Shown here: in pieces, positions 3,001-11,869 of the stretch
Layout of the letters: each line of letters begins with the position of its first letter
Numbering within the stretch: position 1 is the stretch's first letter
Assembly (NCBI GenBank): GCA_000990005.1
Contig: LBPF01000003.1
Span: 71,479 to 135,478, forward strand
Reading direction: 5' to 3'
Source of the DNA: Candidatus Woesebacteria bacterium GW2011_GWB1_33_38
GTDB lineage: Bacteria > Patescibacteriota > Microgenomatia > UBA8517
Length of the DNA stretch: 64,000 nt
Translations under genes and position numbers: made by a program
The notes under the pieces: model-generated
What the model was told of the DNA's origin: nothing
What the model saw: only the letters and a program-made list of their open reading frames with translations
Databases searched by the model: none

Positions 3001-3555
3001 AGGGGATATGTTGTCCCTAAGACTTTAGAGCTTGCAGTTAAAGATAATCAAATGGTTGAGGCGGGAACAGCTCTTGCTTTTGGACCACTTGATCTTAAAG
3101 AAATATTAACAATTAAAGGTCTTCGCGCAGCTCAGGAATACTTAGTTGCAGAAATTCAAAAAGTTTACGAATCTCAAGGCATTGGTATTAATGATAAACA
3201 TTTTGAAGTAATAGCCAGAAAGATGAGCGATGAAGTTAGAATTATAAGTTCAGGTGACACCAACTTCTTGCCAGGAGAACTTACAAGTAAAGCTTCTTTT
3301 GAAGCGGCAAATGAAAAAGCTTTGGCTGAGGGTGGAGAACCAGCATCGGCATCACAGATTGTTTTAGGTATCACAAGAAGATCGCTTTACACTGAAAGCT
3401 GGTTATCGGCCGCATCATTTGAACAGACAACTGATGTTTTAACTGAAAGTTCACTTTTATCTAGGGAAGATACGTTAATGGGACTTAAGGAAAATGTTAT
3501 TATTGGAAGACTTATCCCAGTGACTGAGGAAAAAGCAAATTTAGAAAACAAATAA
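1..3555 (+). CDS. rpoC: DNA-directed RNA polymerase subunit beta' (5'-truncated by window edge)
   Basis: Frame 1 reads through from nt 1 with the beta' zinc-binding N-region (..CFCGKYKRIRYKGVICDKCGVEV..RRERMGHI) and continues with the NADFDGD catalytic motif. The six-frame ORF calls 130..3555; the upstream in-frame sequence shows the gene enters the window already in progress. Confidence 0.95.
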   Translation, partial: EKIFGPTKDWECFCGKYKRIRYKGVICDKCGVEVTQSRVRRERMGHISLACPVAHIWFFKGAPSKISTILGVAPRAIEQVIYFARYLALNVDEDKKKDAIKILEKELADNEAQIISTFKEKREILADEAKKAREKIEGKIKDKDQASLAVSEIELENRKKETALSEDEKANLSGNSRLFENLLGLVRSLKTLSILSEEEYDELSTFGAAEFFDAKMGAEAVLSVLNEIDIEKISTELRTEVNETKPTSTKYIKLVKRLKLVEGLKKAKIDPAWMVLRVLPVLPPDLRPMVQLSGGRFATSDLNDLYRRVINRNNRLKHLIGLGAPEIILRNEKRMLQEAVDSLIDASQRKATRRARGRQPLRSLSDMLKGKQGRFRQNLLGKRVDYSGRSVIIVGPDLKLNQCGLPKEMALEMFKPFVLREMISRGIAPNVKSAKNMLDRRPPEVFDILEEITKDHPVLLNRAPSLHKLSIQAFYPILIEGSAIRLHPAICSGFNADFDGDQMAVHVPLSKQAIEEAKTLMLPEHNLLRPSDGSPVSTPASKEMALGVYYLTSIDTKLEKIKTIFSDKDEAILAHQTERIELRQMIDVRIEGKIIETTVGRIYLNEILPPVFDYVNEAGTSSLIKKLFAIAYAKCDKATVVKMIDDVKALGFSAGTVSGISFGIFDAVLLPEKGKIIKEAENKVSEIEGNYNLGLITLEEKKRMTKEVWLEVSEDLADKTWALMEPTNPIRVVIDAKVGRASRDQVKQLSAMRGLVVDPLGKIVELPIKSNFREGLSVFEYVTSSRGSRKGLTDTAIKTADAGYLTRRLVDVSHDLIIRYNDCNAKEGLTIIKSERPTSFMQRIIGRYLIDDVKDGKGKVIAVKGDLVNEEIAGKIDASGIDILEVRSALTCQSRYGLCAKCYGWDLSTKNEVLMGTPVGVIAAQSIGEPGTQLTLKTKHAAGVVGIDITQGLPRVEELVEARTPKIVSSIAEITGKAIVSETEEGYKVTIRGTGKIKEERGYVVPKTLELAVKDNQMVEAGTALAFGPLDLKEILTIKGLRAAQEYLVAEIQKVYESQGIGINDKHFEVIARKMSDEVRIISSGDTNFLPGELTSKASFEAANEKALAEGGEPASASQIVLGITRRSLYTESWLSAASFEQTTDVLTESSLLSREDTLMGLKENVIIGRLIPVTEEKANLENK

Positions 3556-3558
3556 GTT

Positions 3559-3984
3559 ATGCCTACAGCAAACCAATTAGTAAAACACGGAAGGACTCCA
3601 AATAAAAAGAAAACCAAGACTACTTCTTTAAAAAAGTGGTTTAACTCTAAGGATAGACTTTTTGGTGAAACAGCATCCCCCTTTAAACGGGGTGTTGTTT
3701 TAACGGTTAGAACTCAAACACCCAGAAAACCTAACTCAGCACTTCGTAAAGTAGCTAGAGTTAGATTGTCAAATAAACAAGAAGTTACTGCATATATACC
3801 AGGTGAAGGTCACGAACTTGCAGAACATTCTGTTATATTAGTTAGGGGCGGTAAAGTTAAAGACCTTTCAGGTGTAAAATACACAATTGTTAGAGGAAAA
3901 CTTGATACAACTGGGGTTAGTGGAAGACAAACATCAAGAAGTAGATATGGAACAAAGAGAAACCAAGGAGGTAAAAAGCAATGA
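3559..3984 (+). CDS. rpsL: 30S ribosomal protein S12 (with ~17-aa N-proximal insertion)
   Basis: [40 protein letters not shown] matches the S12 consensus; it starts 4 nt after rpoC. Confidence 0.95.
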
Positions 3985-4448: not shown

Positions 4449-4487
4449 CTTCTACCCAATCTTCAATATTTTATTTCCTGTTTTGCA

Positions 4488-4530
4488 AGGTCAGACCTTA
4501 AAAATCTGGCCATAAAAAGGTCTGACCTTA
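4488..4530. repeat. Perfect 13-bp inverted repeat (AAGGTCAGACCTT / AAGGTCTGACCTT) with 17-nt spacer, downstream of rpsG
   Basis: Read directly from the sequence. No T-run follows on either strand, so it is not a canonical intrinsic terminator. Confidence 0.6.
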
Positions 4531-4720
4531 ATATTGCAGTTAAGTTTTGCATAACTTCAATTCTTCTTTGCTTGTCCAAAGTAAGAATTGGAAGAAGAAA
4601 AGGCACACCTGCCAAAATTATGATAGCAATTTACTTCGTTCATACTTTGTTTGCTAATTAAATTCACTCCATAAATTGAAATCAAATTTTAGAAGGTGGA
4701 GAGAAAGATTTATTTACTTA

Positions 4721-4747
4721 TTGAATTTCGCAGAGAGAGAGTAATAT
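4721..4747 (+). promoter_or_regulatory. Conserved promoter-like element copy 1: TTGAAT-ttcgcagagagagag-TAATAT (15-nt GA-repeat spacer), 10 nt upstream of ATG 4758
   Basis: Motif TTGNAT..CGCAGAGAGAGAG..TAAT recurs at 5752 and 46611. Confidence 0.5.
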
Positions 4748-4757
4748 CAGCCCTATT

Positions 4758-4949
4758 ATGACTTTTGGATTTATTCCAGCTAAAAAAACAGCAAAAGGAG
4801 TTGTCTATGCAGTTTTAGAAAATGGTAGGCCAGTCGATACTTCTCTAGGCGCTAATCCTACTGTTCCTCGCACATTCGTTGATCCTAAAATACATACATA
4901 TCTTCATGGGGAAGAAGGAAAATTAGCTAGTATCAAGAGAAGAGTTTAA
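4758..4949 (+). CDS. Hypothetical small protein (63 aa)
   Basis: ORF immediately downstream of conserved promoter motif copy 1; no recognisable family. Confidence 0.35.
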   Translation: MTFGFIPAKKTAKGVVYAVLENGRPVDTSLGANPTVPRTFVDPKIHTYLHGEEGKLASIKRRV

Positions 4950-4951
4950 AT

Positions 4952-5707
4952 TTATCTTGTAGGAATATTAATAAAAGGAACCCCGTTTGTGGCATTTGGA
5001 AGTTTACCATCCCACTTTTGAACTGCTAAAAATTGTAAATATTCAGCCGATAAACTTCCAGTATTTCTCAAAATCTGTTGAGATTGAGCTTGCCCGTTTG
5101 CTTGAGTTTTTGCGGTTTCAGCCTCAATTTTTGCTCTCTCTAAGTTTTGTTGTGCAACCTGTTTTTGTTCAATCGCATCGTTAAAATCTTTTGAAAAGTC
5201 AAAATTAACAATATTTAAATCATCAACAAATACATTATATTTTTCGAGTCTATTTTTAAGTTCTATTAGTGTAATTTCTCTGACCTTTTCTCTTTTAACT
5301 ATTAAATCTTCAGCAGTAAACTGGGCAGTTGTTGCTTTAAAAGCTTCCTGCATGGCAGGATCAACAACTCTTTCTCTATAATTTATTCCAATGTTTTGAT
5401 AAACATCAACTGCTTTATTGCCATTTAAATGATAATTTAAGGCGATAGTGGACTTTACTTCTTGAAGGTCACTTGAAGCAGCAGTTGCTTCAACCTGTTC
5501 TTTTTGGGTCCTAGTTTCCATAGAAACAACTGATTCAACTAATGGAATTTTTAATGTAAAACCAGGATTAGCTACTCTATTTACAGCACCTAATCTTGTA
5601 ACTACTCCAACATGTCCTGCCCCGACTATAGCCCAAGCGCCAGTAAAAGGAAGGATAAAAAGTATAAGTACAGCAACCAAAATAATTCTAGAGTTTATTT
5701 TTATCAT
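4952..5707 (-). CDS. Band-7 / SPFH (stomatin-prohibitin-HflK/C-like) membrane protein
   Basis: N-terminal TM helix followed by an SPFH-like domain and a C-terminal coiled-coil (..LERAKIEAETAKTQANGQA..). Confidence 0.75.
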   Translation of the reverse strand: MIKINSRIILVAVLILFILPFTGAWAIVGAGHVGVVTRLGAVNRVANPGFTLKIPLVESVVSMETRTQKEQVEATAASSDLQEVKSTIALNYHLNGNKAVDVYQNIGINYRERVVDPAMQEAFKATTAQFTAEDLIVKREKVREITLIELKNRLEKYNVFVDDLNIVNFDFSKDFNDAIEQKQVAQQNLERAKIEAETAKTQANGQAQSQQILRNTGSLSAEYLQFLAVQKWDGKLPNATNGVPFINIPTR

Positions 5708-5751
5708 TTAAACAATCTTAACACGCATGTCAAATATTAGCTTCTTGCTAC

Positions 5752-5780
5752 TTGAATTTCGCAGAGAGAGAGAGTAGTCT
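5752..5780 (+). promoter_or_regulatory. Conserved promoter-like element copy 2: TTGAAT-ttcgcagagagagagag-TAGTCT (17-nt spacer), upstream of ATG 5790
   Basis: Same TTGAATTTCGCAGAGAGAGAG core as copies at 4721 and 46611. Confidence 0.5.
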
Positions 5781-5789
5781 CATCTCTAT

Positions 5790-6005
5790 ATGTCAGAAGA
5801 CGAAAGGCCTTTGAGTGAGACATTGACCGATGCACAAATTGCTGAAGTTTTAAAGGAACATAATCTAGAAGGTACCGCTGAAAACATAGATTTTGTTCGA
5901 AGTACGAGAAAAATCGTGGAAAAATATTTAAAACAACTTGATAGAGGTAGACCTTTTGCAGAAATTTTAACAGAAGTTCGAATAAATTCTTTACATAAAA
6001 ATTAG
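5790..6005 (+). CDS. Hypothetical small acidic protein (71 aa)
   Basis: ORF downstream of motif copy 2; no recognisable family. Confidence 0.4.
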   Translation: MSEDERPLSETLTDAQIAEVLKEHNLEGTAENIDFVRSTRKIVEKYLKQLDRGRPFAEILTEVRINSLHKN

Positions 6006-6109
6006 ACCTGTAAAATTATCCAATCATTTGCTACAATCACTGTTGCTCCATTATGGAGTTTTGTTTTGACTGATCACTTTATATCTGATCACTAATCACT
6101 TGTTATAAA

Positions 6110-8278
6110 ATGGCTGAGGAAAAAGCAAAAAAATCTGCAATTGTAATGACGGCTACTAAAGATCGTAATGTTTCACTGGAAAAAATTAGAAACATTGGAA
6201 TTATTGCCCACATTGATGCAGGTAAAACTACAACTACTGAAAGACTTCTTTTTGAGACGGGCCGTACGTACAAGCAAGGCTCTGTTGATGATGGAACTAC
6301 AGTTACTGATTGGATGGCACAGGAAAGAGAGCGTGGAATTACCATTGTTTCAGCGGCAATTACCGCTTTCTGGGACTTAAAAAAGGACTCTTCCGTTTCC
6401 GCTGGTCATTATAGAATTAATTTGATTGATACTCCAGGACATATTGATTTCACTGCAGAAGTTGAGAGATCCTTAAGAGTTTTGGATGGTGCTTTAATGG
6501 TTTTTGACGGTAGAACTGGAGTTGAATCACAATCTGAAACAGTTTGGAGACAGGCCGATAAATATAATGTTCCAAGAATTTGCGTTTTAAACAAACTTAA
6601 TCTTATAGGATCTGATTTTGATGGATCAATCAAATCAATTAGAGAAAGGCTCGGCGCAAATGCCTCACCTGTTATTTACCCAATTGGCCAGGAACACCAG
6701 CATCGTGGTGTCATTGATCTTATTACCATGAAAGCTCTTACTTATAAAGCAGTTGAAGATGCAAAGCTTGTAGACGAAGAAATACCTAATGATTTTTTGG
6801 AAACCGCTAAAAAATACAGGCAGGAATTAATTGAAAAAGTTTCAGAGTTTGATGACGAAGCCTTGACATTATTCTTGGAAGGCATGGAACCTGACGAAAT
6901 CATTATAAAACGTGCTATTAGGAAAGGTGTTATAGCTGGTAAATTTTTCCCAATTTTTGGGGGGGACAACAGAACTGCAGAAAGCCAACTACTATTGAAT
7001 GGGGTTGTTGAGTATCTACCATCTCCAATTGATTTGCCTGCAATTTCTGGAACAAACCCTAAAACAGGGGAAATTGAAACAAGGGAAAGAAAAAATGAGG
7101 CTGCATTTTCTGGCCTTGCCTTTAAAGTTGTAACAGATCCTCATGTGGGTAGACTTGTCTATGTTAGAGTTTATTCAGGAACCCTAAAAGCAGGACAACA
7201 GGTTTATAACTCAAGTAAACAACTAACAGAAAGAATTGGAAAATTGGTACTTCTTCATGCCGATCAAAGAGAATTAATTGAAGAAGCCTATGCCGGAGAA
7301 ATTGTTGCTGTGGTGGGTGTTAAAGATACAACCACAGGTCACACCATTTGTGATCCAGCTCATCCAATTCATCTTGAATCAATTACATTCCCAGAACCAG
7401 TAATTTCCTTGGCAATTGAACCCGCAACCAAATCTGATCAAGAAAAAATGGGTTTGGCCTTAAATAAACTATCAGATGAAGATCCAACATTTAAAATTAA
7501 AAGTAATCCTGAAACTGGACAAACAATTATTGCTGGAATGGGTGAACTTCAACTTGAAGTCTTGGTCGACAGAATGAAGAGAGAATTTAACGTCGTGGCA
7601 ACCACAGGTGCTCCACAAGTAGCCTACAAAGAAACTATTAAAAAGTATGCAGAAGGTGAAGGAAAGTATATTAGACAAACTGGAGGCCGAGGACAGTATG
7701 GTCATTGTTTACTTAAAGTTGAGCCAAAAAGTAAGGGAGAAGGATTTGAATTTGTTAATCAAATTAAAGGTGGCTCAATTCCAGGAGAGTATATTCCAGC
7801 AATTGAAAAAGGTGCGCGCGAAAAATTAGAAAATGGAATTATGGCAGGGTACCCGATGGTTGATGTTAAAGTTACAGTTTTTGATGGAAGTTACCATGAT
7901 GTTGATTCTTCAGAAATGGCCTTTAAGATAGCAGGTTCTTTAGGTGTTGAAGATGCAGTAAGAAAAGCAGATATGGTTCTTTTAGAGCCTATTATGAAAG
8001 TTGAGGTTTTTACCCCAGCAGAATATATGGGAGATGTTATGGGAGACCTTTCAAGTAAAAGGGCTCAAATTTCAGGATCAGAGGAAAAAGGTGGAGAAAC
8101 TGTTATCTATGCAACAGCGCCTTTGGCAGAACTATCTGGATATGCAACAAAACTCCGTTCCCTTACTCAAGGAAGAGCAAGGGCATATGTAGAGCCTTCT
8201 CATTATGAAGAAGTTCCATCCCACATCGCAGCCCAAATAGTTGCCAAGGCTGGTAAAGTTGAAATGGCAAGAGGATAA
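6110..8278 (+). CDS. fusA: Elongation factor G
   Basis: AHIDAGKTT G1 motif and DTPGHIDF, 722 aa, at the canonical position in the str operon. Confidence 0.95.
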   Translation: MAEEKAKKSAIVMTATKDRNVSLEKIRNIGIIAHIDAGKTTTTERLLFETGRTYKQGSVDDGTTVTDWMAQERERGITIVSAAITAFWDLKKDSSVSAGHYRINLIDTPGHIDFTAEVERSLRVLDGALMVFDGRTGVESQSETVWRQADKYNVPRICVLNKLNLIGSDFDGSIKSIRERLGANASPVIYPIGQEHQHRGVIDLITMKALTYKAVEDAKLVDEEIPNDFLETAKKYRQELIEKVSEFDDEALTLFLEGMEPDEIIIKRAIRKGVIAGKFFPIFGGDNRTAESQLLLNGVVEYLPSPIDLPAISGTNPKTGEIETRERKNEAAFSGLAFKVVTDPHVGRLVYVRVYSGTLKAGQQVYNSSKQLTERIGKLVLLHADQRELIEEAYAGEIVAVVGVKDTTTGHTICDPAHPIHLESITFPEPVISLAIEPATKSDQEKMGLALNKLSDEDPTFKIKSNPETGQTIIAGMGELQLEVLVDRMKREFNVVATTGAPQVAYKETIKKYAEGEGKYIRQTGGRGQYGHCLLKVEPKSKGEGFEFVNQIKGGSIPGEYIPAIEKGAREKLENGIMAGYPMVDVKVTVFDGSYHDVDSSEMAFKIAGSLGVEDAVRKADMVLLEPIMKVEVFTPAEYMGDVMGDLSSKRAQISGSEEKGGETVIYATAPLAELSGYATKLRSLTQGRARAYVEPSHYEEVPSHIAAQIVAKAGKVEMARG

Positions 8279-8286
8279 AACACTGC

Positions 8287-8315
8287 TTGACAACTGTTAT
8301 ATTTAAGTTTAATCT
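8287..8315 (+). promoter_or_regulatory. Putative promoter TTGACA-N17-TAATCT for the abiE pair
   Basis: Consensus -35 and acceptable -10 with 17-nt spacing, read directly. Confidence 0.45.
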
Positions 8316-8323
8316 ATATATGT

Positions 8324-8347
8324 TAAGTCACTTATACTGATGACTTA
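8324..8347. promoter_or_regulatory. Inverted repeat TAAGTCA-N10-TGACTTA between promoter and abiEi ATG (candidate AbiEi autoregulatory operator)
   Basis: Read directly; AbiEi antitoxins are known to autorepress by binding inverted repeats in their own promoter. Confidence 0.4.
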
Positions 8348-8353
8348 GAGTAT

Positions 8354-9130
8354 ATGAATCATACAATACTTTCAAGTAAACAAGACGAACTTCTGGAGAA
8401 TTTAATTGTTAAATATAACAAAATAGTTACTTTTGAACAAATTCTTCTTGAATCTAAAAAATTTTGGGATTACAAACAAACAAAAAACCTTATCACGAAG
8501 TTGGTTAAAAACGGATGGTTAATACGAATTAAAAAGAGTTTATATGTTATTAGTGATTTAAGTACTCGAGGATTTTTATCAATTTCACCCTATAAAGTTG
8601 CAAATTTATTAGTTCCCGAATCATACGTTTCGTTCGAATCGGCTTTGCAAAAATATGGAATGTTTGATCAATTGACCAGTAAAACGATCTCGGTTTCATT
8701 AAAAGCATATAAAAAAGTTATTTTAAATTCAAATGAATATTCATTTGTTAAAACAAAGCCTGAATTTTATTTTGGCTGGCAGGATATTGAAATTGATAAC
8801 AGTATTGTGCACATCGCCACAGCTGAAAAAGCATTAATTGATATTGTTAATTTTCGAAAGAGTCAATATTCTCTAGATTTAGTGTTTGAAAAACTTATAG
8901 AAAATCGTCAAAACTTAGATTTTGACAAATTCGACGATTATCTAGCAAGATTATCTTTGGCCACAATAAAAATTTTTGGTCTTGTTTTTGACATTATTGG
9001 TATAAAGTCAAATAAACTTTTGATAAAAGTTATTGCTAGTCGTAGTACTCATAAAATGCTTCCCGATGATAATAAATTTAATTCTAAATGGCGACTTTAT
9101 TACGATCCCTATTTTGACAAATATCGTTAA
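8354..9130 (+). CDS. abiEi: AbiEi-like antitoxin / transcriptional regulator (type IV TA, abortive infection)
   Basis: 258 aa; N-terminal wHTH-like region plus an AbiEi C-terminal-like region (..LYVISDL..VPESYVSFESALQKYGM..); immediately followed by a DUF1814 nucleotidyltransferase. Confidence 0.7.
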   Translation: MNHTILSSKQDELLENLIVKYNKIVTFEQILLESKKFWDYKQTKNLITKLVKNGWLIRIKKSLYVISDLSTRGFLSISPYKVANLLVPESYVSFESALQKYGMFDQLTSKTISVSLKAYKKVILNSNEYSFVKTKPEFYFGWQDIEIDNSIVHIATAEKALIDIVNFRKSQYSLDLVFEKLIENRQNLDFDKFDDYLARLSLATIKIFGLVFDIIGIKSNKLLIKVIASRSTHKMLPDDNKFNSKWRLYYDPYFDKYR

Positions 9131-9132
9131 GT

Positions 9133-9912
9133 ATGAATATTAAATTTCTTACTCGTCAACAACTAGAAATAATTAATAGAAAAACTTTGCGATATCCACT
9201 GCAAATTGCCGAGAAGGACTATTTCTTAGCATTAGTAATGCAAATTATTTCAGAATCTCCGATGAAAAATATTTTGATATTTAAGGGAGGAACAGCGCTT
9301 CATCATTGTTATTTAAAGCAGTTTCGATTTTCTGAAGATTTAGATTTTTCTTCCAATCAAAGATCTTTATCACTCAACAAAATAAGAGAGATATTTAATA
9401 AATTAGATTTTCTTGAAATCAAAAAAGATTATATTTCAAAGGCAACTATAAAAATCGAAAAATTACAATACCTTGGACCCTTAATGCAACCAAATTCATT
9501 AAAAGTTGAGATTGATTTCCTTCAAAATGTTTATTTACCTCCGCAAAAAGAAAAATATGAAAATGTTTGGGGTTTAGCTTTTTTTGTAAATGTTATGGAT
9601 ATCAAAGAGATTTGTGCTGAAAAAATTAGGGCAATGAATGACAGAATTAGATATCGAGATTTTTACGATTTTTCTATGATTATCAAAAAACATTCATTAA
9701 ATTTAGTTGAAATAATTAATATAGTTAGGAAGAAAGAAATCAGAAAATCTATAAGTTCTAAAAATATTAAAGATAATTGGAAAATAGCAAGAGGAGATAA
9801 ACAAAACGACTATCAGTCAATCTATTTTTCAGAAATTTTAGAAGAAAAAGAAATTAGTAATTATTTATCAATGTTAAAATTTGAAGAAATTAAGAAAAGT
9901 CGAAATGGCTAG
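9133..9912 (+). CDS. abiEii: AbiEii/AbiGii-family nucleotidyltransferase toxin (DUF1814)
   Basis: Hallmark FKGGTAL...RFSEDLDF motif; 259 aa; starts 3 nt after abiEi. Confidence 0.75.
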   Translation: MNIKFLTRQQLEIINRKTLRYPLQIAEKDYFLALVMQIISESPMKNILIFKGGTALHHCYLKQFRFSEDLDFSSNQRSLSLNKIREIFNKLDFLEIKKDYISKATIKIEKLQYLGPLMQPNSLKVEIDFLQNVYLPPQKEKYENVWGLAFFVNVMDIKEICAEKIRAMNDRIRYRDFYDFSMIIKKHSLNLVEIINIVRKKEIRKSISSKNIKDNWKIARGDKQNDYQSIYFSEILEEKEISNYLSMLKFEEIKKSRNG

Positions 9913-9980
9913 GGGGTAAACTTCAGTGTTATAATTGATTTATATGAAGAAATTGTTTTCCAATTTAAATAATTTGGGTG

Positions 9981-10010
9981 TTGACACTTTTTGGTAGGCT
10001 CGGTTATAAT
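9981..10010 (+). promoter_or_regulatory. Consensus sigma70-type promoter TTGACA-N18-TATAAT, 7 nt upstream of tuf ATG (leaderless-type)
   Basis: Exact consensus hexamers read directly; ATG at 10018. Confidence 0.6.
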
Positions 10011-10017
10011 ACACAAT

Positions 10018-11217
10018 ATGGCAGATACAAAGGTAAAATTTGATAGAAGTAAACCACACGTAAACATTGGTACTATTGGTCACGTCGATCATGGTAAGAC
10101 AACTTTAACTGCAGCTATTACCACCGTTTTAGCAAAGAATTTTCCAGGTGGAGTAAATAAAGCTTATGCCTTTGATCAGATTGATTCAGCTCCAGAAGAG
10201 AAACAAAGAGGAGTTACAATTAATATTTCTCACGTTGAGTACGAAACAGACAAAAGACATTATGCTCACATTGATGCTCCAGGTCATGCAGACTACATTA
10301 AGAACATGATTACTGGTGCCGCACAAATGGACGGAGCAATCTTAGTTGTCTCAGCTCCAGATGGCCCAATGCCTCAAACCAGAGAACATGTAATTTTAGC
10401 AAGACAAGTTAATGTCCCTTCATTGATAGTTGCGCTTAATAAATGTGATGCAATGGATGATCCAGAACTTCTTGAGCTTGTAGAAGCAGATATTAGAGAT
10501 TTACTTAAAAAATATCAATTTCCAGGAGACACCACTCCAATTGTTAGAGTTTCAGCCCTAAAAGCTTTGGAAGGTGATGCAGAAGCAGAAAAAGGAATTT
10601 TGGAATTAATGAAACAAGCTGATGAGTTTATTCCAGATCCAGTTAGAGATACAGAGAAACCATTCTTAATGCCTGTTGAGGACGTATTCTCAATCTCAGG
10701 CCGTGGAACAGTTGTTACAGGAAGAGTTGAAAGAGGAGAAATTAAAGTTAACGAAGAAATTGAAATAGTTGGTCTTAAAGACACTATGAAATCAGTAGTA
10801 ACTGGACTTGAAATGTTCAGAAAATTACTAGATTCTGCAATGGCAGGTGATAATGTTGGAGTTTTACTTAGAGGAGTTGAAAAGACGCAGGTTGAAAGAG
10901 GACAAGTTCTTGCAAAAACTGGAACAGTTACACCTCATACTGAGTTTGAGGCAGAAGTTTATATTCTTTCTAAGGATGAAGGAGGAAGACATACCCCATT
11001 CTTTACAGGTTACAAACCACAGTTCTTTATAAGAACAGCAGACGTTACAGGAGATGTTATCTTACCTGAAGGGGTTGAAATGGTCATGCCAGGAGACTCC
11101 GCAAAAATGAAAGTAAAATTGATAGTACCTGTGGCTATGGAAGATGGTTTAAGATTTGCAATTCGTGAAGGTGGTCACACAGTAGGCGCAGGTGTGATTA
11201 CTAAGATAATAGCCTAA
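10018..11217 (+). CDS. tuf: Elongation factor Tu
   Basis: [33 protein letters not shown]..; the listed ORF starts at an upstream TTG, but the ATG at 10018 matches the EF-Tu N-terminus. Confidence 0.95.
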
Positions 11218-11230
11218 GCACATTTTAAAT

Positions 11231-11533
11231 ATGCAAAGATTAAGAGTTAAGCTTAAAGCTTACGATCATAGAGTACTAGATGAAGCCGCCACAAAGATAA
11301 TTGACGCGGCACTTTCAACAGGCGCTAAAATCTCCGGTCCAATCCCACTTCCTACAGATAGATCTGTCATGGCTGTCAAGGAATCCCCATTTACAGATAA
11401 AGATGCACAAGAACATTACGAGGTTTTGACCCACAAAAGACTGGTAGACATTATTGACCCAACTCCAAAAACAGTTGATGCCTTGGGTAACTTAGATCTT
11501 CCCGCAGGAGTCTCAATCGAGATCAAGATGTAA
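11231..11533 (+). CDS. rpsJ: 30S ribosomal protein S10
   Basis: [17 protein letters not shown].. S10 consensus. Confidence 0.93.
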
Positions 11534-11575
11534 GTTTCATGTATCGCTGTACTAGTACGATGATACAAATCCAAA

Positions 11576-11869
11576 TTAAGAATTGATTTTTGGCAAAATT
11601 GGTTTGGTTGGAGCTTTACTTGCTCGAGATTTTTTCTCTTTCAAATACGCTTGCATATCATTTTCTGGAACTTGAAGAACTGGTCTGTTTTTATCATCCA
11701 CTACAATATGAATTGTTTGGGGTTCTTGGTATCCCATCTTGTGCCTAGTGTAACACAAAAGCCTCGCTTGATACAAGTTACTTAGTTTGATATAATTCAC
11801 TCTTAGAATCATGAAAATGAATTCTTTGTTTTTTTTGGCTTTCAAAAATGAATATATTATTTGGTACAA
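11576..11869 (-). CDS. Antisense hypothetical ORF in the unusual 314-nt rpsJ-rplC gap (possibly only the C-terminal ~53 aa from the internal ATG at 11737 is real)
   Basis: Six-frame ORF; TTG start overlapping the rplC start; the C-terminal half looks protein-like but has no family match. Confidence 0.2.
   Translation of the reverse strand: MYQIIYSFLKAKKNKEFIFMILRVNYIKLSNLYQARLLCYTRHKMGYQEPQTIHIVVDDKNRPVLQVPENDMQAYLKEKKSRASKAPTKPILPKINS
11768..11796 (+). promoter_or_regulatory. Putative S10-operon promoter TTGATA-N17-TATAAT
   Basis: Read directly, about 50 nt upstream of rplC. Confidence 0.5.

What the first reader, a model, noticed from the sequence alone, without database searches (positions are those of the whole stretch)
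8287..9912. AbiEi/AbiEii type IV TA / abortive-infection pair inserted inside the str operon between fusA and tuf
fusA and tuf are normally adjacent and co-transcribed. Here a two-gene module sits between them: an AbiEi-like wHTH antitoxin and a DUF1814 nucleotidyltransferase carrying the GGTAL..SEDLDF motif. The module has its own consensus-like promoter (TTGACA-N17-TAATCT). An inverted repeat TAAGTCA-N10-TGACTTA lies between the promoter and the ATG, and may be the autoregulatory operator known for AbiEi. tuf in turn has acquired its own perfect TTGACA-N18-TATAAT promoter. A defence or addiction module embedded in the most highly expressed operon of a reduced genome is unusual.
Basis: partly seen in the sequence, partly recalled or inferred. 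Interest (0 to 1): 0.62.

Follow-up and report, generated by a model that had tools for sequence, protein, structure and literature searches.

The report
AbiE toxin–antitoxin cassette between fusA and tuf
A two-gene AbiE toxin–antitoxin / phage-defence cassette with its own self-repressed promoter was inserted long ago between the genes for elongation factors G and Tu in a groundwater Woesebacterium; the module is an ordinary member of a very common family, and the only new lead is the duplicated gene tail that brackets it.

Summary
Window 8354-9130 encodes an AbiEi-type antitoxin/repressor and 9133-9912 an AbiEii (DUF1814) nucleotidyltransferase toxin with all catalytic motifs. They lie between fusA (6110-8278) and tuf (10018-11217) of a Candidatus Woesebacteria genome (GCA_000989845.1).

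The four closest relatives have fusA and tuf 56-120 nt apart and no AbiE, so this is a lineage-specific insertion. One sister lineage (EF-G 95% identical) shares it. There dS matches the flanking genes and dN/dS is about 0.1, so the insertion is old, vertically inherited and under purifying selection.

The TTGACA-N17-TAATCT promoter and the palindrome before the ATG are conserved, with compensatory half-site changes, in 12 unrelated genomic contexts. They belong to the cassette.

The setting is also less unusual than claimed. AbiE is one of the commonest defence families in groundwater genomes. A third of sampled loci, mostly Patescibacteria, carry other genes between fusA and tuf.

New here: the cassette is bracketed by a 19-25 bp direct repeat of the fusA 3' tail. 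Context-specific flanking repeats recur around 10 of 47 AbiE contexts, against 1 of 200 controls.

The parts
6110..8278 (+). fusA (EF-G, 722 aa), the upstream host gene. Its last 7 codons plus stop form the left copy of the direct repeat.
   Evidence: Pfam GTP_EFTU, EFG_III, EFG_IV and EFG_C; 79-88% identical to EF-G of the nearest Woesebacteria.
8255..8280 (+). DR-L: AAAGTTGAAATGGCAAGAGGATAAA(A), the fusA 3' tail (K V E M A R G stop) plus 2 nt.
   Evidence: the repeat finder D1; local alignment; identical over the last 8 codons in L086.
8287..8315 (+). Cassette promoter: -35 TTGACA (8287-8292), 17-nt spacer, -10 TAATCT (8310-8315). Homology with AbiE cassettes in other genomes begins at the -35.
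   Evidence: Sequence. -35 TGAC invariant and -10 TA(A/T)T(A/C)T conserved in 12 contexts; upstream of the -35 the sequences are unrelated.
8324..8347 (+). Palindrome TAAGTCA-N10-TGACTTA, the predicted AbiEi operator. It lies from about +9 of the predicted transcript to 6 nt before the ATG.
   Evidence: (I4). Across 12 contexts 77% of cells are paired against 66% in shuffles (1/500) and 21-43% in slid registers; 6 of 8 pairs change on both sides. Compensatory half-sites in L121 and L098. The RNA hairpin is not unusually stable (z=-0.74).
8354..9130 (+). abiEi: antitoxin and autorepressor (258 aa), with an N-terminal winged helix and a C-terminal AbiEi domain.
   Evidence: PADLOC AbiEi 3.7e-31, NCBIfam TAA_AbiEi 5e-9, Pfam below threshold. 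AF2 model pLDDT 73; the four top PDB fold hits are S. agalactiae AbiEi 6Y8Q and M. tuberculosis Rv2827c 1ZEL. dN/dS 0.10 against L086.
9133..9912 (+). abiEii: DUF1814 nucleotidyltransferase toxin (259 aa). Its last 4-5 codons and its TAG stop are read from DR-R.
   Evidence: PF08843 1.8e-29, PADLOC 2.6e-37. Motifs G52-G53, R65, S67, D69, D71, K164, R171 and R175-D176..D179 lie in blocks conserved in at least 90-98% of 121 sequences. Aligns to MenT4 6Y56, JHP933 4OK0 and AbiGII 9HLO. dN/dS 0.105.
9896..9921 (+). DR-R: AAAGTCGAAATGGCTAGGGGGTAAA(C), a second copy of the fusA tail. All 4 differences from DR-L within the 8 codons are synonymous in the fusA frame (still K V E M A R G stop).
   Evidence: (the only other match with 3 or fewer mismatches in 64 kb; 0.08 expected). 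It is a perfect 19-mer in L086.
9922..9980 (+). 59-nt spacer between DR-R and the tuf promoter. It has no terminator-like site and contains an orphan extended -10-like TGTTATAAT (9927-9935). Its origin is unresolved; the closest relative has 10 nt here.
9981..10010 (+). Ancestral tuf promoter TTGACA-N18-TATAAT.
   Evidence: 12/12 match. Present at the same place in AbiE-free relatives L006-L009; the L009 spacer differs at 2 of 18 positions.
10018..11217 (+). tuf (EF-Tu, 399 aa), the downstream host gene.
   Evidence: Pfam GTP_EFTU, D2 and D3; 94% identical to L009 EF-Tu.

Best explanation
The region is a functional AbiE-family toxin-antitoxin / abortive-infection cassette about 1.62 kb long, running from its own -35 box to the end of abiEii. 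It was inserted once, in the common ancestor of this Woesebacterium and a sister lineage, immediately after fusA. The insertion left a 19-25 bp duplication of the fusA 3' tail on both sides.

Shown here: the family assignment of both proteins, intact catalytic motifs, a cassette-borne promoter and palindrome, the insertion and its age, purifying selection, and an ancestral tuf promoter.

Inferred by homology to S. agalactiae AbiE and M. tuberculosis MenAT:
- AbiEi binds the palindrome just downstream of the -10 through its winged helix and represses the bicistronic operon.
- Its C-terminal domain binds AbiEii and induces autophosphorylation at Ser67 (the position of T65 in S. agalactiae), which silences the toxin.
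- When released, for example on phage infection, AbiEii adds nucleotides to tRNA 3' ends and blocks aminoacylation and translation.

The insertion is tolerated because fusA keeps an intact tail and tuf keeps its own strong promoter directly upstream. No terminator separates the cassette from either neighbour.
For: Family:
- AbiEii hits PF08843 at 1.8e-29 and PADLOC at 2.6e-37. AbiEi hits PADLOC at 3.7e-31 and NCBIfam at 5e-9.
- The AbiEi model's best PDB fold matches are the two solved AbiEi antitoxins.
- abiEi lies directly upstream of abiEii in essentially every relative with enough sequence.

Motifs:
- hGG-x15-DhD with R65, S67, D69 and D71, K164/R171, and RDFYD map onto the residues whose mutation abolishes toxicity in S. 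agalactiae AbiEii (PMC3985639).
- S67 maps onto the phosphoacceptor T65 (bioRxiv 10.64898/2026.01.19.700257). The motif blocks are conserved in at least 90-98% of 121 sequences.

Insertion:
- L006-L009 (EF-G 79-88% identical) have fusA-tuf gaps of 56-120 nt and no AbiE.
- L086 (EF-G 95%) has fusA-abiEi-abiEii.
- About 70 other relatives of the cassette are in unrelated contexts.

Age and selection: dS of abiEi and abiEii is 0.83 and 1.00, against 1.09 for fusA and 1.15 for band7; dN/dS is 0.10. GC3 of the cassette (0.20-0.21) equals the genome's.

Regulation: the promoter and palindrome are conserved with covariation in 12 contexts.

tuf promoter ancestral. No terminator-like site between 8278 and 10018. 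Direct repeat.
Against: No experiment shows toxicity, antitoxicity, DNA binding or phage defence for this cassette.

AbiEi scores below the Pfam and NCBIfam cut-offs, and its sequence profile does not reach any solved AbiEi. The fold match rests on a medium-confidence model (pLDDT 73; residues 106-140 are poor).

The operator here lies downstream of the -10. In S. agalactiae the inverted repeats overlap the -35/-10 (PMC3985639).

The -10 hexamer is weak (3 of 6). Palindrome conservation with compensatory change is also what a 5'-UTR hairpin would show.

The toxin's substrate and nucleotide preference cannot be read from sequence. MenT4 uses GTP, MenT1 and MenT3 use CTP, and AbiEii uses UTP.
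Confidence: 0.85

Rival explanations
1. The cassette is the last surviving piece of a larger integrase-bearing island that integrated site-specifically into the fusA 3' end. On this reading the two repeats are attL and attR. Everything except the addictive toxin-antitoxin pair was later deleted, leaving a CIME-like remnant.
For: The direct repeat consists of the 3' tail of a conserved gene, as at classical att sites. All differences between the copies are synonymous in the fusA frame, as if one copy came from another host's fusA. L108 has 117-nt repeats ending in the 3' end of tRNA-Ile. EF-2, the archaeal EF-G orthologue, is a preferred integration target of thaumarchaeal casposons (PMC6563490).
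Against: No integrase or remnant lies between the repeats. The junctions are too tight for random decay: 6 nt from DR-L to the -35, and DR-R overlapping the abiEii stop. The same tight right junction, 6-14 nt before the abiEii end, recurs in three independent contexts: WIN/L086, L119 and L166. Repeat length varies from 19 to about 120 nt and the sequence is context-specific, unlike a fixed att core.
Confidence: 0.15
2. The pair acts mainly as a selfish addiction element in a safe harbour rather than as phage defence. Sitting between two essential genes makes deletion nearly impossible. The conserved flanks let it spread between related genomes by homologous recombination.
For: It has persisted over dS of about 1 with both genes intact. 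It lies between two essential genes. Other toxin-antitoxin genes occupy neighbouring gaps in relatives' ribosomal clusters (YafQ in L009) and operon junctions (MNT/HepT in L168). AbiE stabilises mobile elements (PMC3985639, PMC11062541).
Against: dN/dS of 0.1 on both genes fits either role. L. lactis AbiE does confer phage resistance (PMC3985639). CPR bacteria in aquifers carry a high defence-system density, which the authors attribute to heavy phage pressure (PMC12259885). The two roles are not exclusive.
Confidence: 0.3
3. The palindrome is a 5'-UTR RNA hairpin that controls translation or stability of the abiE mRNA. On this reading it is not a DNA operator.
For: It lies within the predicted transcript and ends 6 nt before the ATG. 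Pairing is conserved with changes on both sides.
Against: Predicted stability is ordinary (-8.2 kcal/mol, z=-0.74, 42 of 200 shuffles fold as well). G-U-type intermediates are rare: only 2 of 96 cells are G-U at one pair. Divergent AbiEi subfamilies carry different palindromes at the same position, so the palindrome sequence tracks the protein. AbiEi proteins are documented inverted-repeat binders (PMC3985639, PMC7319586).
Confidence: 0.1
4. The fusA-abiE-tuf arrangement is a misassembly or a chimeric contig.
For: The source is a metagenome-assembled genome. GC drops from about 38% in the flanks to 26-28% in the cassette.
Against: The five places displayed, from independent NCBI, ENA and JGI assemblies, show the identical arrangement, and 19 further places with mostly the same neighbours were not shown. 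A diverged sister contig shares it. GC3 of the cassette equals that of the rest of the genome, so the GC dip reflects amino-acid composition.
Confidence: 0.01

Closest known systems
AbiE (AbiEi/AbiEii) of Streptococcus agalactiae and Lactococcus lactis (PMC3985639; bioRxiv 10.64898/2026.01.19.700257)
   Same: A bicistronic abiEi-abiEii operon. The toxin is a DUF1814 pol-beta-type NTase with motifs I-IV, including the x15 spacing between GG and DhD, the motif II arginine, and a Ser/Thr two residues before the first Asp. The antitoxin has a winged helix plus a C-terminal domain. An inverted repeat lies in the promoter region.
   Different: Sequence identity to the solved proteins is very low (AbiEi 16-19% in the structural alignment). 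There is a single palindrome with 7-nt arms downstream of the -10, rather than two 23-bp inverted repeats overlapping the -35/-10. The host is a Patescibacterium and the location is a chromosomal ribosomal-gene cluster, not a plasmid or ICE.
MenAT systems of Mycobacterium tuberculosis (MenT1, MenT3, MenT4; PMC10435456, PMC11375011)
   Same: The same DUF1814 fold family. The best PDB sequence hit of the toxin is MenT4 (6Y56), aligned across the GG...RFS(T)DLDF active site. The AbiEi model matches Rv2827c (1ZEL), which lies next to MenT4/Rv2826c. The expected activity is addition of nucleotides to tRNA 3' ends.
   Different: Nucleotide and tRNA specificity are unknown here. MenA antitoxins differ in type between systems. 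No phosphatase partner was identified in the window.
Integrative elements and casposons that target the 3' ends of conserved translation genes (ef-2 in Thaumarchaeota, PMC6563490; tRNA genes generally)
   Same: The insertion sits exactly at the 3' end of the EF-G gene. The gene tail is duplicated as a flanking direct repeat and the host reading frame is preserved.
   Different: There is no integrase or casposase, no terminal inverted repeats, and only 1.6 kb of cargo. Repeat length varies between contexts. This is an analogy only.

Membership tests
AbiEii / DUF1814 nucleotidyltransferase toxins (PF08843, COG2253) | Significant match to the family profile above the curated threshold | tested here: met
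   PF08843 at E=1.8e-29, 103.8 bits against a cut-off of 22.5. PADLOC AbiEii at 2.6e-37.
AbiEii / DUF1814 nucleotidyltransferase toxins (PF08843, COG2253) | Motif I hG[GS], x15 spacing, and motif II DhD with an upstream Arg (PMC3985639) | tested here: met
   F50-K-G52-G53, then 15 residues, then D69-L-D71, with R65. This block is conserved in at least 98% of 121 sequences. It aligns to MenT4 and JHP933.
AbiEii / DUF1814 nucleotidyltransferase toxins (PF08843, COG2253) | Motif III (Lys, then Arg seven residues on) and motif IV (+DxxD) | tested here: met
   K164...R171 and R175-D176-F-Y-D179, conserved in the homologue alignment.
AbiEii / DUF1814 nucleotidyltransferase toxins (PF08843, COG2253) | Phosphoacceptor Ser/Thr two residues before the first catalytic Asp (T65 in S. 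agalactiae AbiEii) | tested here: met
   S67 in R65-F-S67-E-D69 has the same spacing as R63/T65/D67 (bioRxiv 10.64898/2026.01.19.700257). Phosphorylation itself is untested.
AbiEii / DUF1814 nucleotidyltransferase toxins (PF08843, COG2253) | Toxicity and NTase activity on tRNA | not testable with these tools
   Needs expression and nucleotide-transfer assays.
AbiEi antitoxin (COG5340; PF13338/PF09407/PF17194) | Profile match above the curated threshold | tested here: inconclusive
   Pfam AbiEi_4 19.6 bits (cut-off 25), AbiEi_1 14.2 (22.2) and AbiEi_3_N 13.5 (26). NCBIfam TAA_AbiEi 36 bits (cut-off 150). PADLOC AbiEi models reach 3.7e-31 over residues 6-248. Close homologues are annotated AbiEi by NCBI and carry precomputed PF13338 hits.
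AbiEi antitoxin (COG5340; PF13338/PF09407/PF17194) | Two-domain fold: N-terminal winged helix plus AbiEi C-terminal domain | tested here: met
   AF2 model with pLDDT 73 and pTM 0.60. Foldseek PDB ranks 1-4 are 6Y8Q (AbiEi) and 1ZEL (Rv2827c), probability 1.00, TM 0.53-0.59 for 1ZEL. The next hits are winged-helix domains only.
AbiEi antitoxin (COG5340; PF13338/PF09407/PF17194) | Encoded immediately upstream of, and co-oriented with, abiEii | tested here: met
   A 2-nt gap here, and a 4-nt overlap in L086, L087 and L089. The pairing is seen in nearly all 72 metagenomic loci with enough sequence.
AbiEi antitoxin (COG5340; PF13338/PF09407/PF17194) | Inverted repeats in the promoter bound by AbiEi (negative autoregulation) | tested here: inconclusive
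   A conserved, covarying palindrome is present between the -10 and the ATG. Its position and number differ from the S. agalactiae case. Binding was not testable.
Site-specific integrative element (att-flanked island) | Flanking direct repeats derived from the target gene's 3' end | tested here: met
   A 19-25 bp repeat of the fusA tail in the window, and a perfect 19-mer in L086.
Site-specific integrative element (att-flanked island) | Element-encoded integrase or recombinase | tested here: not met
   Only abiEi and abiEii lie between the repeats. There are no terminal inverted repeats.

The most novel reading that the evidence does not exclude
AbiE modules in Patescibacteria may travel as minimal, recombinase-less cassettes running from the promoter to the stop codon. 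On this reading they integrate next to the 3' ends of conserved genes (fusA, surE, tRNA-Ile) by a process that duplicates a variable 19-120 nt piece of the target.

One candidate process is Campbell-type recombination of a circular cassette that carries the gene tail of its previous host. The fusA-tuf site would then be one landing pad of a general, undescribed mobility route for toxin-antitoxin and defence cassettes in naturally competent, reduced genomes.
Probability: 0.25. Interest if true: 0.6.

Novelty: new member of a known kind. Interest (0 to 1): 0.33.

Why it matters
As an AbiE module it adds little. The family is well characterised and very common in groundwater bacteria, and UniRef already names both proteins.

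Three points have modest value:

1. It is a clean, datable example of a toxin-antitoxin cassette fixed between two essential translation genes. The empty ancestral site is preserved in relatives. It shows how a pre-existing gene-proximal tuf promoter makes the ribosomal cluster of Woesebacteria permissive to insertions.

2. The comparative set defines a compact promoter and operator architecture for a large Patescibacterial AbiE clade, with palindromes that co-vary with the antitoxin subtype. This gives ready-made probes for binding studies.

3. Direct repeats of local host sequence flank about a fifth of AbiE insertions, against 0.5% of controls. In several cases abiEii loses its own stop codon into the repeat. 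This is a testable lead on how such small defence cassettes move without their own recombinase.

Tried and rejected
- I looked for the fusA-tail 18-mer on viral contigs as a possible phage attP. The 3 hits have no EF-G homology and unrelated contexts, which fits the roughly 2 chance matches I estimated for a collection this size (my estimate, not a tool result).
- I tested whether similarity between the two flanks extends beyond the repeat, for example a duplicated promoter. It is not significant in the window or in L086 (p about 0.4-0.5).
- I looked for fusA-tail repeats in 16 other loci with occupied fusA-tuf gaps. None rose above chance: the best 19-mers matched at 11-15 positions.
- A sequence-profile search of AbiEi against PDB found nothing significant. 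The fold search was needed.
- An Rfam scan of the roughly 120-nt repeats in L166 and L170 gave no family. I considered that these repeats might be DGR template/variable repeats, because bAvd is adjacent and the differences are T-biased. I did not pursue it, because the strand is wrong for the avd orientation.
- The RNA hairpin reading of the palindrome shows no unusual stability.
- I checked for terminal inverted repeats at the cassette ends. There are none.
- Codon-phase periodicity of repeat differences is suggestive in WIN, L119 and L135 but absent in L139, L166 and L108. It does not settle whether a copy came from another host or arose by target duplication.
Full report
**What is there.** The window is part of contig LBPA01000003.1 of GCA_000989845.1. 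NCBI labels the two proteins 'hypothetical protein [Candidatus Woesebacteria bacterium ...]', and UniRef already names them as AbiEi-domain and AbiEii/AbiGii-family proteins. Between fusA (6110-8278) and tuf (10018-11217) lie two co-oriented ORFs, 8354-9130 (258 aa) and 9133-9912 (259 aa).
- TTGACA 8287-8292, N17, TAATCT 8310-8315
- TAAGTCA 8324-8330, N10, TGACTTA 8341-8347
- ATG at 8354
- FKGGTAL...RFSEDLDFS in the second ORF
- TTGACA-N18-TATAAT at 9981-10010 before tuf (12/12)

The arrangement was read on 24 contigs from independent NCBI, ENA and JGI assemblies. The five places displayed all show it, so it is not an assembly artefact.

**Family assignment.**
- The second ORF is a clear AbiEii/DUF1814 protein: PF08843 at 1.8e-29, well above threshold, and PADLOC at 2.6e-37.
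- Its best solved relatives by sequence are MenT4 (6Y56), JHP933 (4OK0) and AbiGII (9HLO), aligned through the active site.
- The residues that Dy et al. showed to be required for toxicity of S. agalactiae AbiEii are G49, R63, D67, D69, K173, R180 and D192 (PMC3985639). They have counterparts here: G52/G53, R65, D69, D71, K164, R171 and R175-D176..D179. The family-typical x15 spacing is kept.
- These motif blocks are conserved in at least 90-98% of an alignment of 121 sequences.
- S67 occupies the position of the phosphoacceptor T65 described in the 2026 preprint, which reclassifies AbiE as type VII (10.64898/2026.01.19.700257).
- The first ORF scores below the Pfam and NCBIfam cut-offs but hits PADLOC AbiEi models at 3.7e-31 over its full length.
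- A sequence profile of AbiEi did not reach any solved structure.
- An AlphaFold model built on 50 homologues (pLDDT 73) has as its four best PDB fold matches the two solved AbiEi-type antitoxins, 6Y8Q and 1ZEL. Generic winged-helix domains follow.
- abiEi sits directly upstream of abiEii in essentially every related locus.

**It is an insertion, and an old one.**
- A scan of species-representative genomes with EF-G returned four close Woesebacteria (EF-G 79-88% identical, L006-L009). In all four, fusA and tuf are 56-120 nt apart and AbiE is absent.
- One diverged sister contig, L086, has EF-G 95%, Band-7 92%, AbiEi 84% and AbiEii 81% identical. It has the same fusA-abiEi-abiEii order.
- Between the window and L086, dS of abiEi (0.83) and abiEii (1.00) matches fusA (1.09) and band7 (1.15). 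dN/dS is 0.10 for both abiE genes. This indicates one insertion before the split, vertical descent and purifying selection.
- The GC dip of the cassette (26-28% against 38%) is not a codon-usage signal. Its GC3 of 0.20-0.21 equals the rest of the genome.
- About 70 other relatives of the cassette, from metagenomes and exact-protein look-ups, lie in unrelated contexts and never next to fusA or tuf.

**Promoter and operator belong to the cassette.** The 83 nt upstream of abiEi were aligned from 12 different genomic contexts.
- Similarity begins at the -35 box. TGAC is invariant and the flanking T and A are at least 90% conserved.
- It continues through a TA(A/T)T(A/C)T -10 and a palindrome AGTCA(C)-N8-10-(G)TGACT that ends 6-8 nt before the ATG.
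- Upstream of the -35 the sequences are unrelated.
- The palindrome keeps its symmetry. 77% of cells are paired, against 66% in shuffles (1/500) and 21-43% in slid registers. Six of eight pairs change on both sides.
- L121 (GTAGT/ACTAC) and L098 (TCCC/GGGA) are clear compensatory cases.
- More distant AbiEi subfamilies carry different palindromes at the same position.
- As RNA the hairpin is unremarkable (z=-0.74).

I therefore favour a DNA operator for the AbiEi winged helix, as documented for AbiEi proteins (PMC3985639, PMC7319586). It differs from the S. agalactiae case in position (downstream of the -10) and in number.

**The tuf promoter is ancestral.** All four AbiE-free relatives have TTGACA-N18-TATAAT just upstream of tuf.
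- L009 reads TTGACACTTTTTAGTAGTCTCGGTTATAATACACACTATGGCAG.
- The window reads TTGACACTTTTTGGTAGGCTCGGTTATAATACACAATATGGCAG.

So tuf did not acquire a promoter after the insertion. It already had one, which probably explains why the insertion is tolerated. No terminator-like site lies between fusA and abiEi or between abiEii and tuf, so read-through in both directions of the chain is possible.

**How unusual is the location?** Less than claimed.
- Of 50 sampled loci holding both genes, mostly Patescibacteria, 16 have more than 300 nt between fusA and tuf. The contents are assorted: Maf, an MFS transporter, NUDIX, an epimerase, a beta-propeller protein and hypotheticals.
- In this window rpsG and fusA are already separated by a Band-7 gene on the opposite strand and two small ORFs.
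- rpsJ and rplC are separated by 315 nt holding an 11/12 promoter.
- In the closest relative, L009, the rpsG-fusA gap holds a DUF559/Vsr-like nuclease and an ORF6N protein. The rpsJ-rplC gap holds a YafQ toxin gene.
- AbiE is one of the five most prevalent defence families in groundwater MAGs, and CPR genomes have a high defence density (PMC12259885).

- The last codons of fusA (AAAGTTGAAATGGCAAGAGGATAAA, 8255-8279, K V E M A R G stop) recur at the right end of the cassette (AAAGTCGAAATGGCTAGGGGGTAAA, 9896-9920).
- This is the only other match with 3 or fewer mismatches to the 19-mer in 64 kb, where 0.08 are expected.
- In L086 the repeat is a perfect 19-mer.
- All four differences within the 8 codons in the window are synonymous in the fusA frame.
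- abiEii has lost its native stop. In the window it terminates at a TAG inside the repeat. In L086 a TAA overlaps the start of the repeat.
- Similarity does not extend beyond the repeat.

**Flanking repeats are recurrent.**
- A local-alignment test on 47 distinct AbiE contexts gave z>5 in 10. These represent 8 independent contexts.
- The same test on 200 same-geometry control placements gave z>5 in 1.
- Repeat length ranges from 19 to about 120 nt.
- The repeats are context-specific. Examples are the surE tail in L119 (FQALKGQVITL* against FQALKGQVINL*), a 117-nt segment ending in the 3' end of tRNA-Ile in L108, and about 91-122 nt in L166 and L170.
- In three independent 'tight' cases the right copy starts 6-14 nt before the end of abiEii.
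- No recombinase lies inside any of these units that I inspected, and there are no terminal inverted repeats.

I cannot decide between three origins for these repeats: Campbell-type recombination of a circular cassette carrying a previous host's gene tail, trans-acting site-specific integration, or a replication-based duplication. The variable repeat length argues against a fixed att core or a transposase stagger. EF-2 as a casposon target (PMC6563490) is only an analogy.

**Verdict.** This is a real, intact, selected AbiE module with cassette-borne regulation, inserted once at the fusA 3' end in a small Woesebacteria lineage. As a system it is a new member of a well-known kind. Its claim about the tuf promoter is wrong, and its sense of rarity is overstated. 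The direct-repeat bracketing of AbiE cassettes is the one lead that might repay further work.

Noticed in passing
L119:1200-1235 and 2805-2840; L166:1839-1960 and 3601-3722; L170:1249-1339 and 3006-3096; L108:448-564 and 2530-2646; also L139, L097, L135, L125: AbiE cassettes in unrelated genomes are flanked by context-specific direct repeats of 28-122 nt. Examples are the surE tail and a segment ending in the tRNA-Ile 3' end. 10 of 47 contexts score z>5, against 1 of 200 control placements. In the tight cases abiEii reads into the right copy.
   Followed up: partly
L087:3170-3243 (also L091, L152): In the 75%-identical cassette the abiEii ORF has no stop of its own and runs into an antisense tRNA-Trp gene, which lies next to rpmG. 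This is another junction at the 3' end of a translation-related gene. No flanking repeat was found there.
   Followed up: partly
L009:1830-5901 and 9973-11761: The closest AbiE-free relative carries a DUF559/Vsr-like nuclease and an ORF6N protein between rpsG and fusA. It carries a YafQ-family toxin, next to a 95-aa ORF with no Pfam hit, between rpsJ and rplC. The ribosomal cluster junctions of these Woesebacteria look like general landing sites for mobile and toxin-antitoxin genes.
   Followed up: partly
window 4463-6109: rpsG and fusA are separated by 1.66 kb. It holds a Band-7/SPFH gene on the minus strand (4952-5707) and two small plus-strand ORFs (4758-4949, 5790-6005). The str operon is therefore already split upstream of fusA. 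L006-L008 have rpsG and fusA adjacent.
   Followed up: partly
window 11534-11847: A 315-nt gap between rpsJ and rplC holds an 11/12 promoter with a TG extension (11768-11796) and a small antisense ORF (11576-11869; a 53-aa gene is called there in GenBank).
   Followed up: no
L168:2551-3358: An MNT/HepT (NTP_transf_2 plus HepT-like) toxin-antitoxin pair is inserted between the membrane and ATPase genes of an ABC transporter. An AbiE cassette lies directly after the ATPase gene, and abiEii overlaps the start of the next gene by 8 nt. L089 has AbiE after the ABC-transporter ATPase gene as well.
   Followed up: no
L101-L126 and others: AbiEii proteins 57-64% identical to the window's are paired with AbiEi proteins only 33-38% identical. 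Those AbiEi carry a different palindrome (for example AGTAAT..ATTACT) at the same promoter position. This suggests antitoxin and operator swapping against a conserved toxin.
   Followed up: no
L166:1369-1960 and 3601-3722: The roughly 120-nt repeats flanking AbiE lie next to a bAvd (DGR accessory) gene. Their differences are biased to T in the left copy: 9 of 14 in L166 and 6 of 8 in L170. A DGR template/variable-repeat relationship was considered, but the strand does not fit. There is no Rfam match.
   Followed up: partly
window 9927-9935: An orphan extended -10-like TGTTATAAT lies in the 59-nt spacer between DR-R and the tuf promoter. The spacer has no counterpart in L009, which has 10 nt there, and is barely alignable with L086.
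   Followed up: no
L007, L011-L015, L017, L020, L022, L026: Several loci whose EF-G is closest to Patescibacteria are titled 'uncultured Gammaproteobacteria/Pseudomonadales' or 'Vitreimonas' in their records. These are probably mislabelled MAG bins.
   Followed up: no
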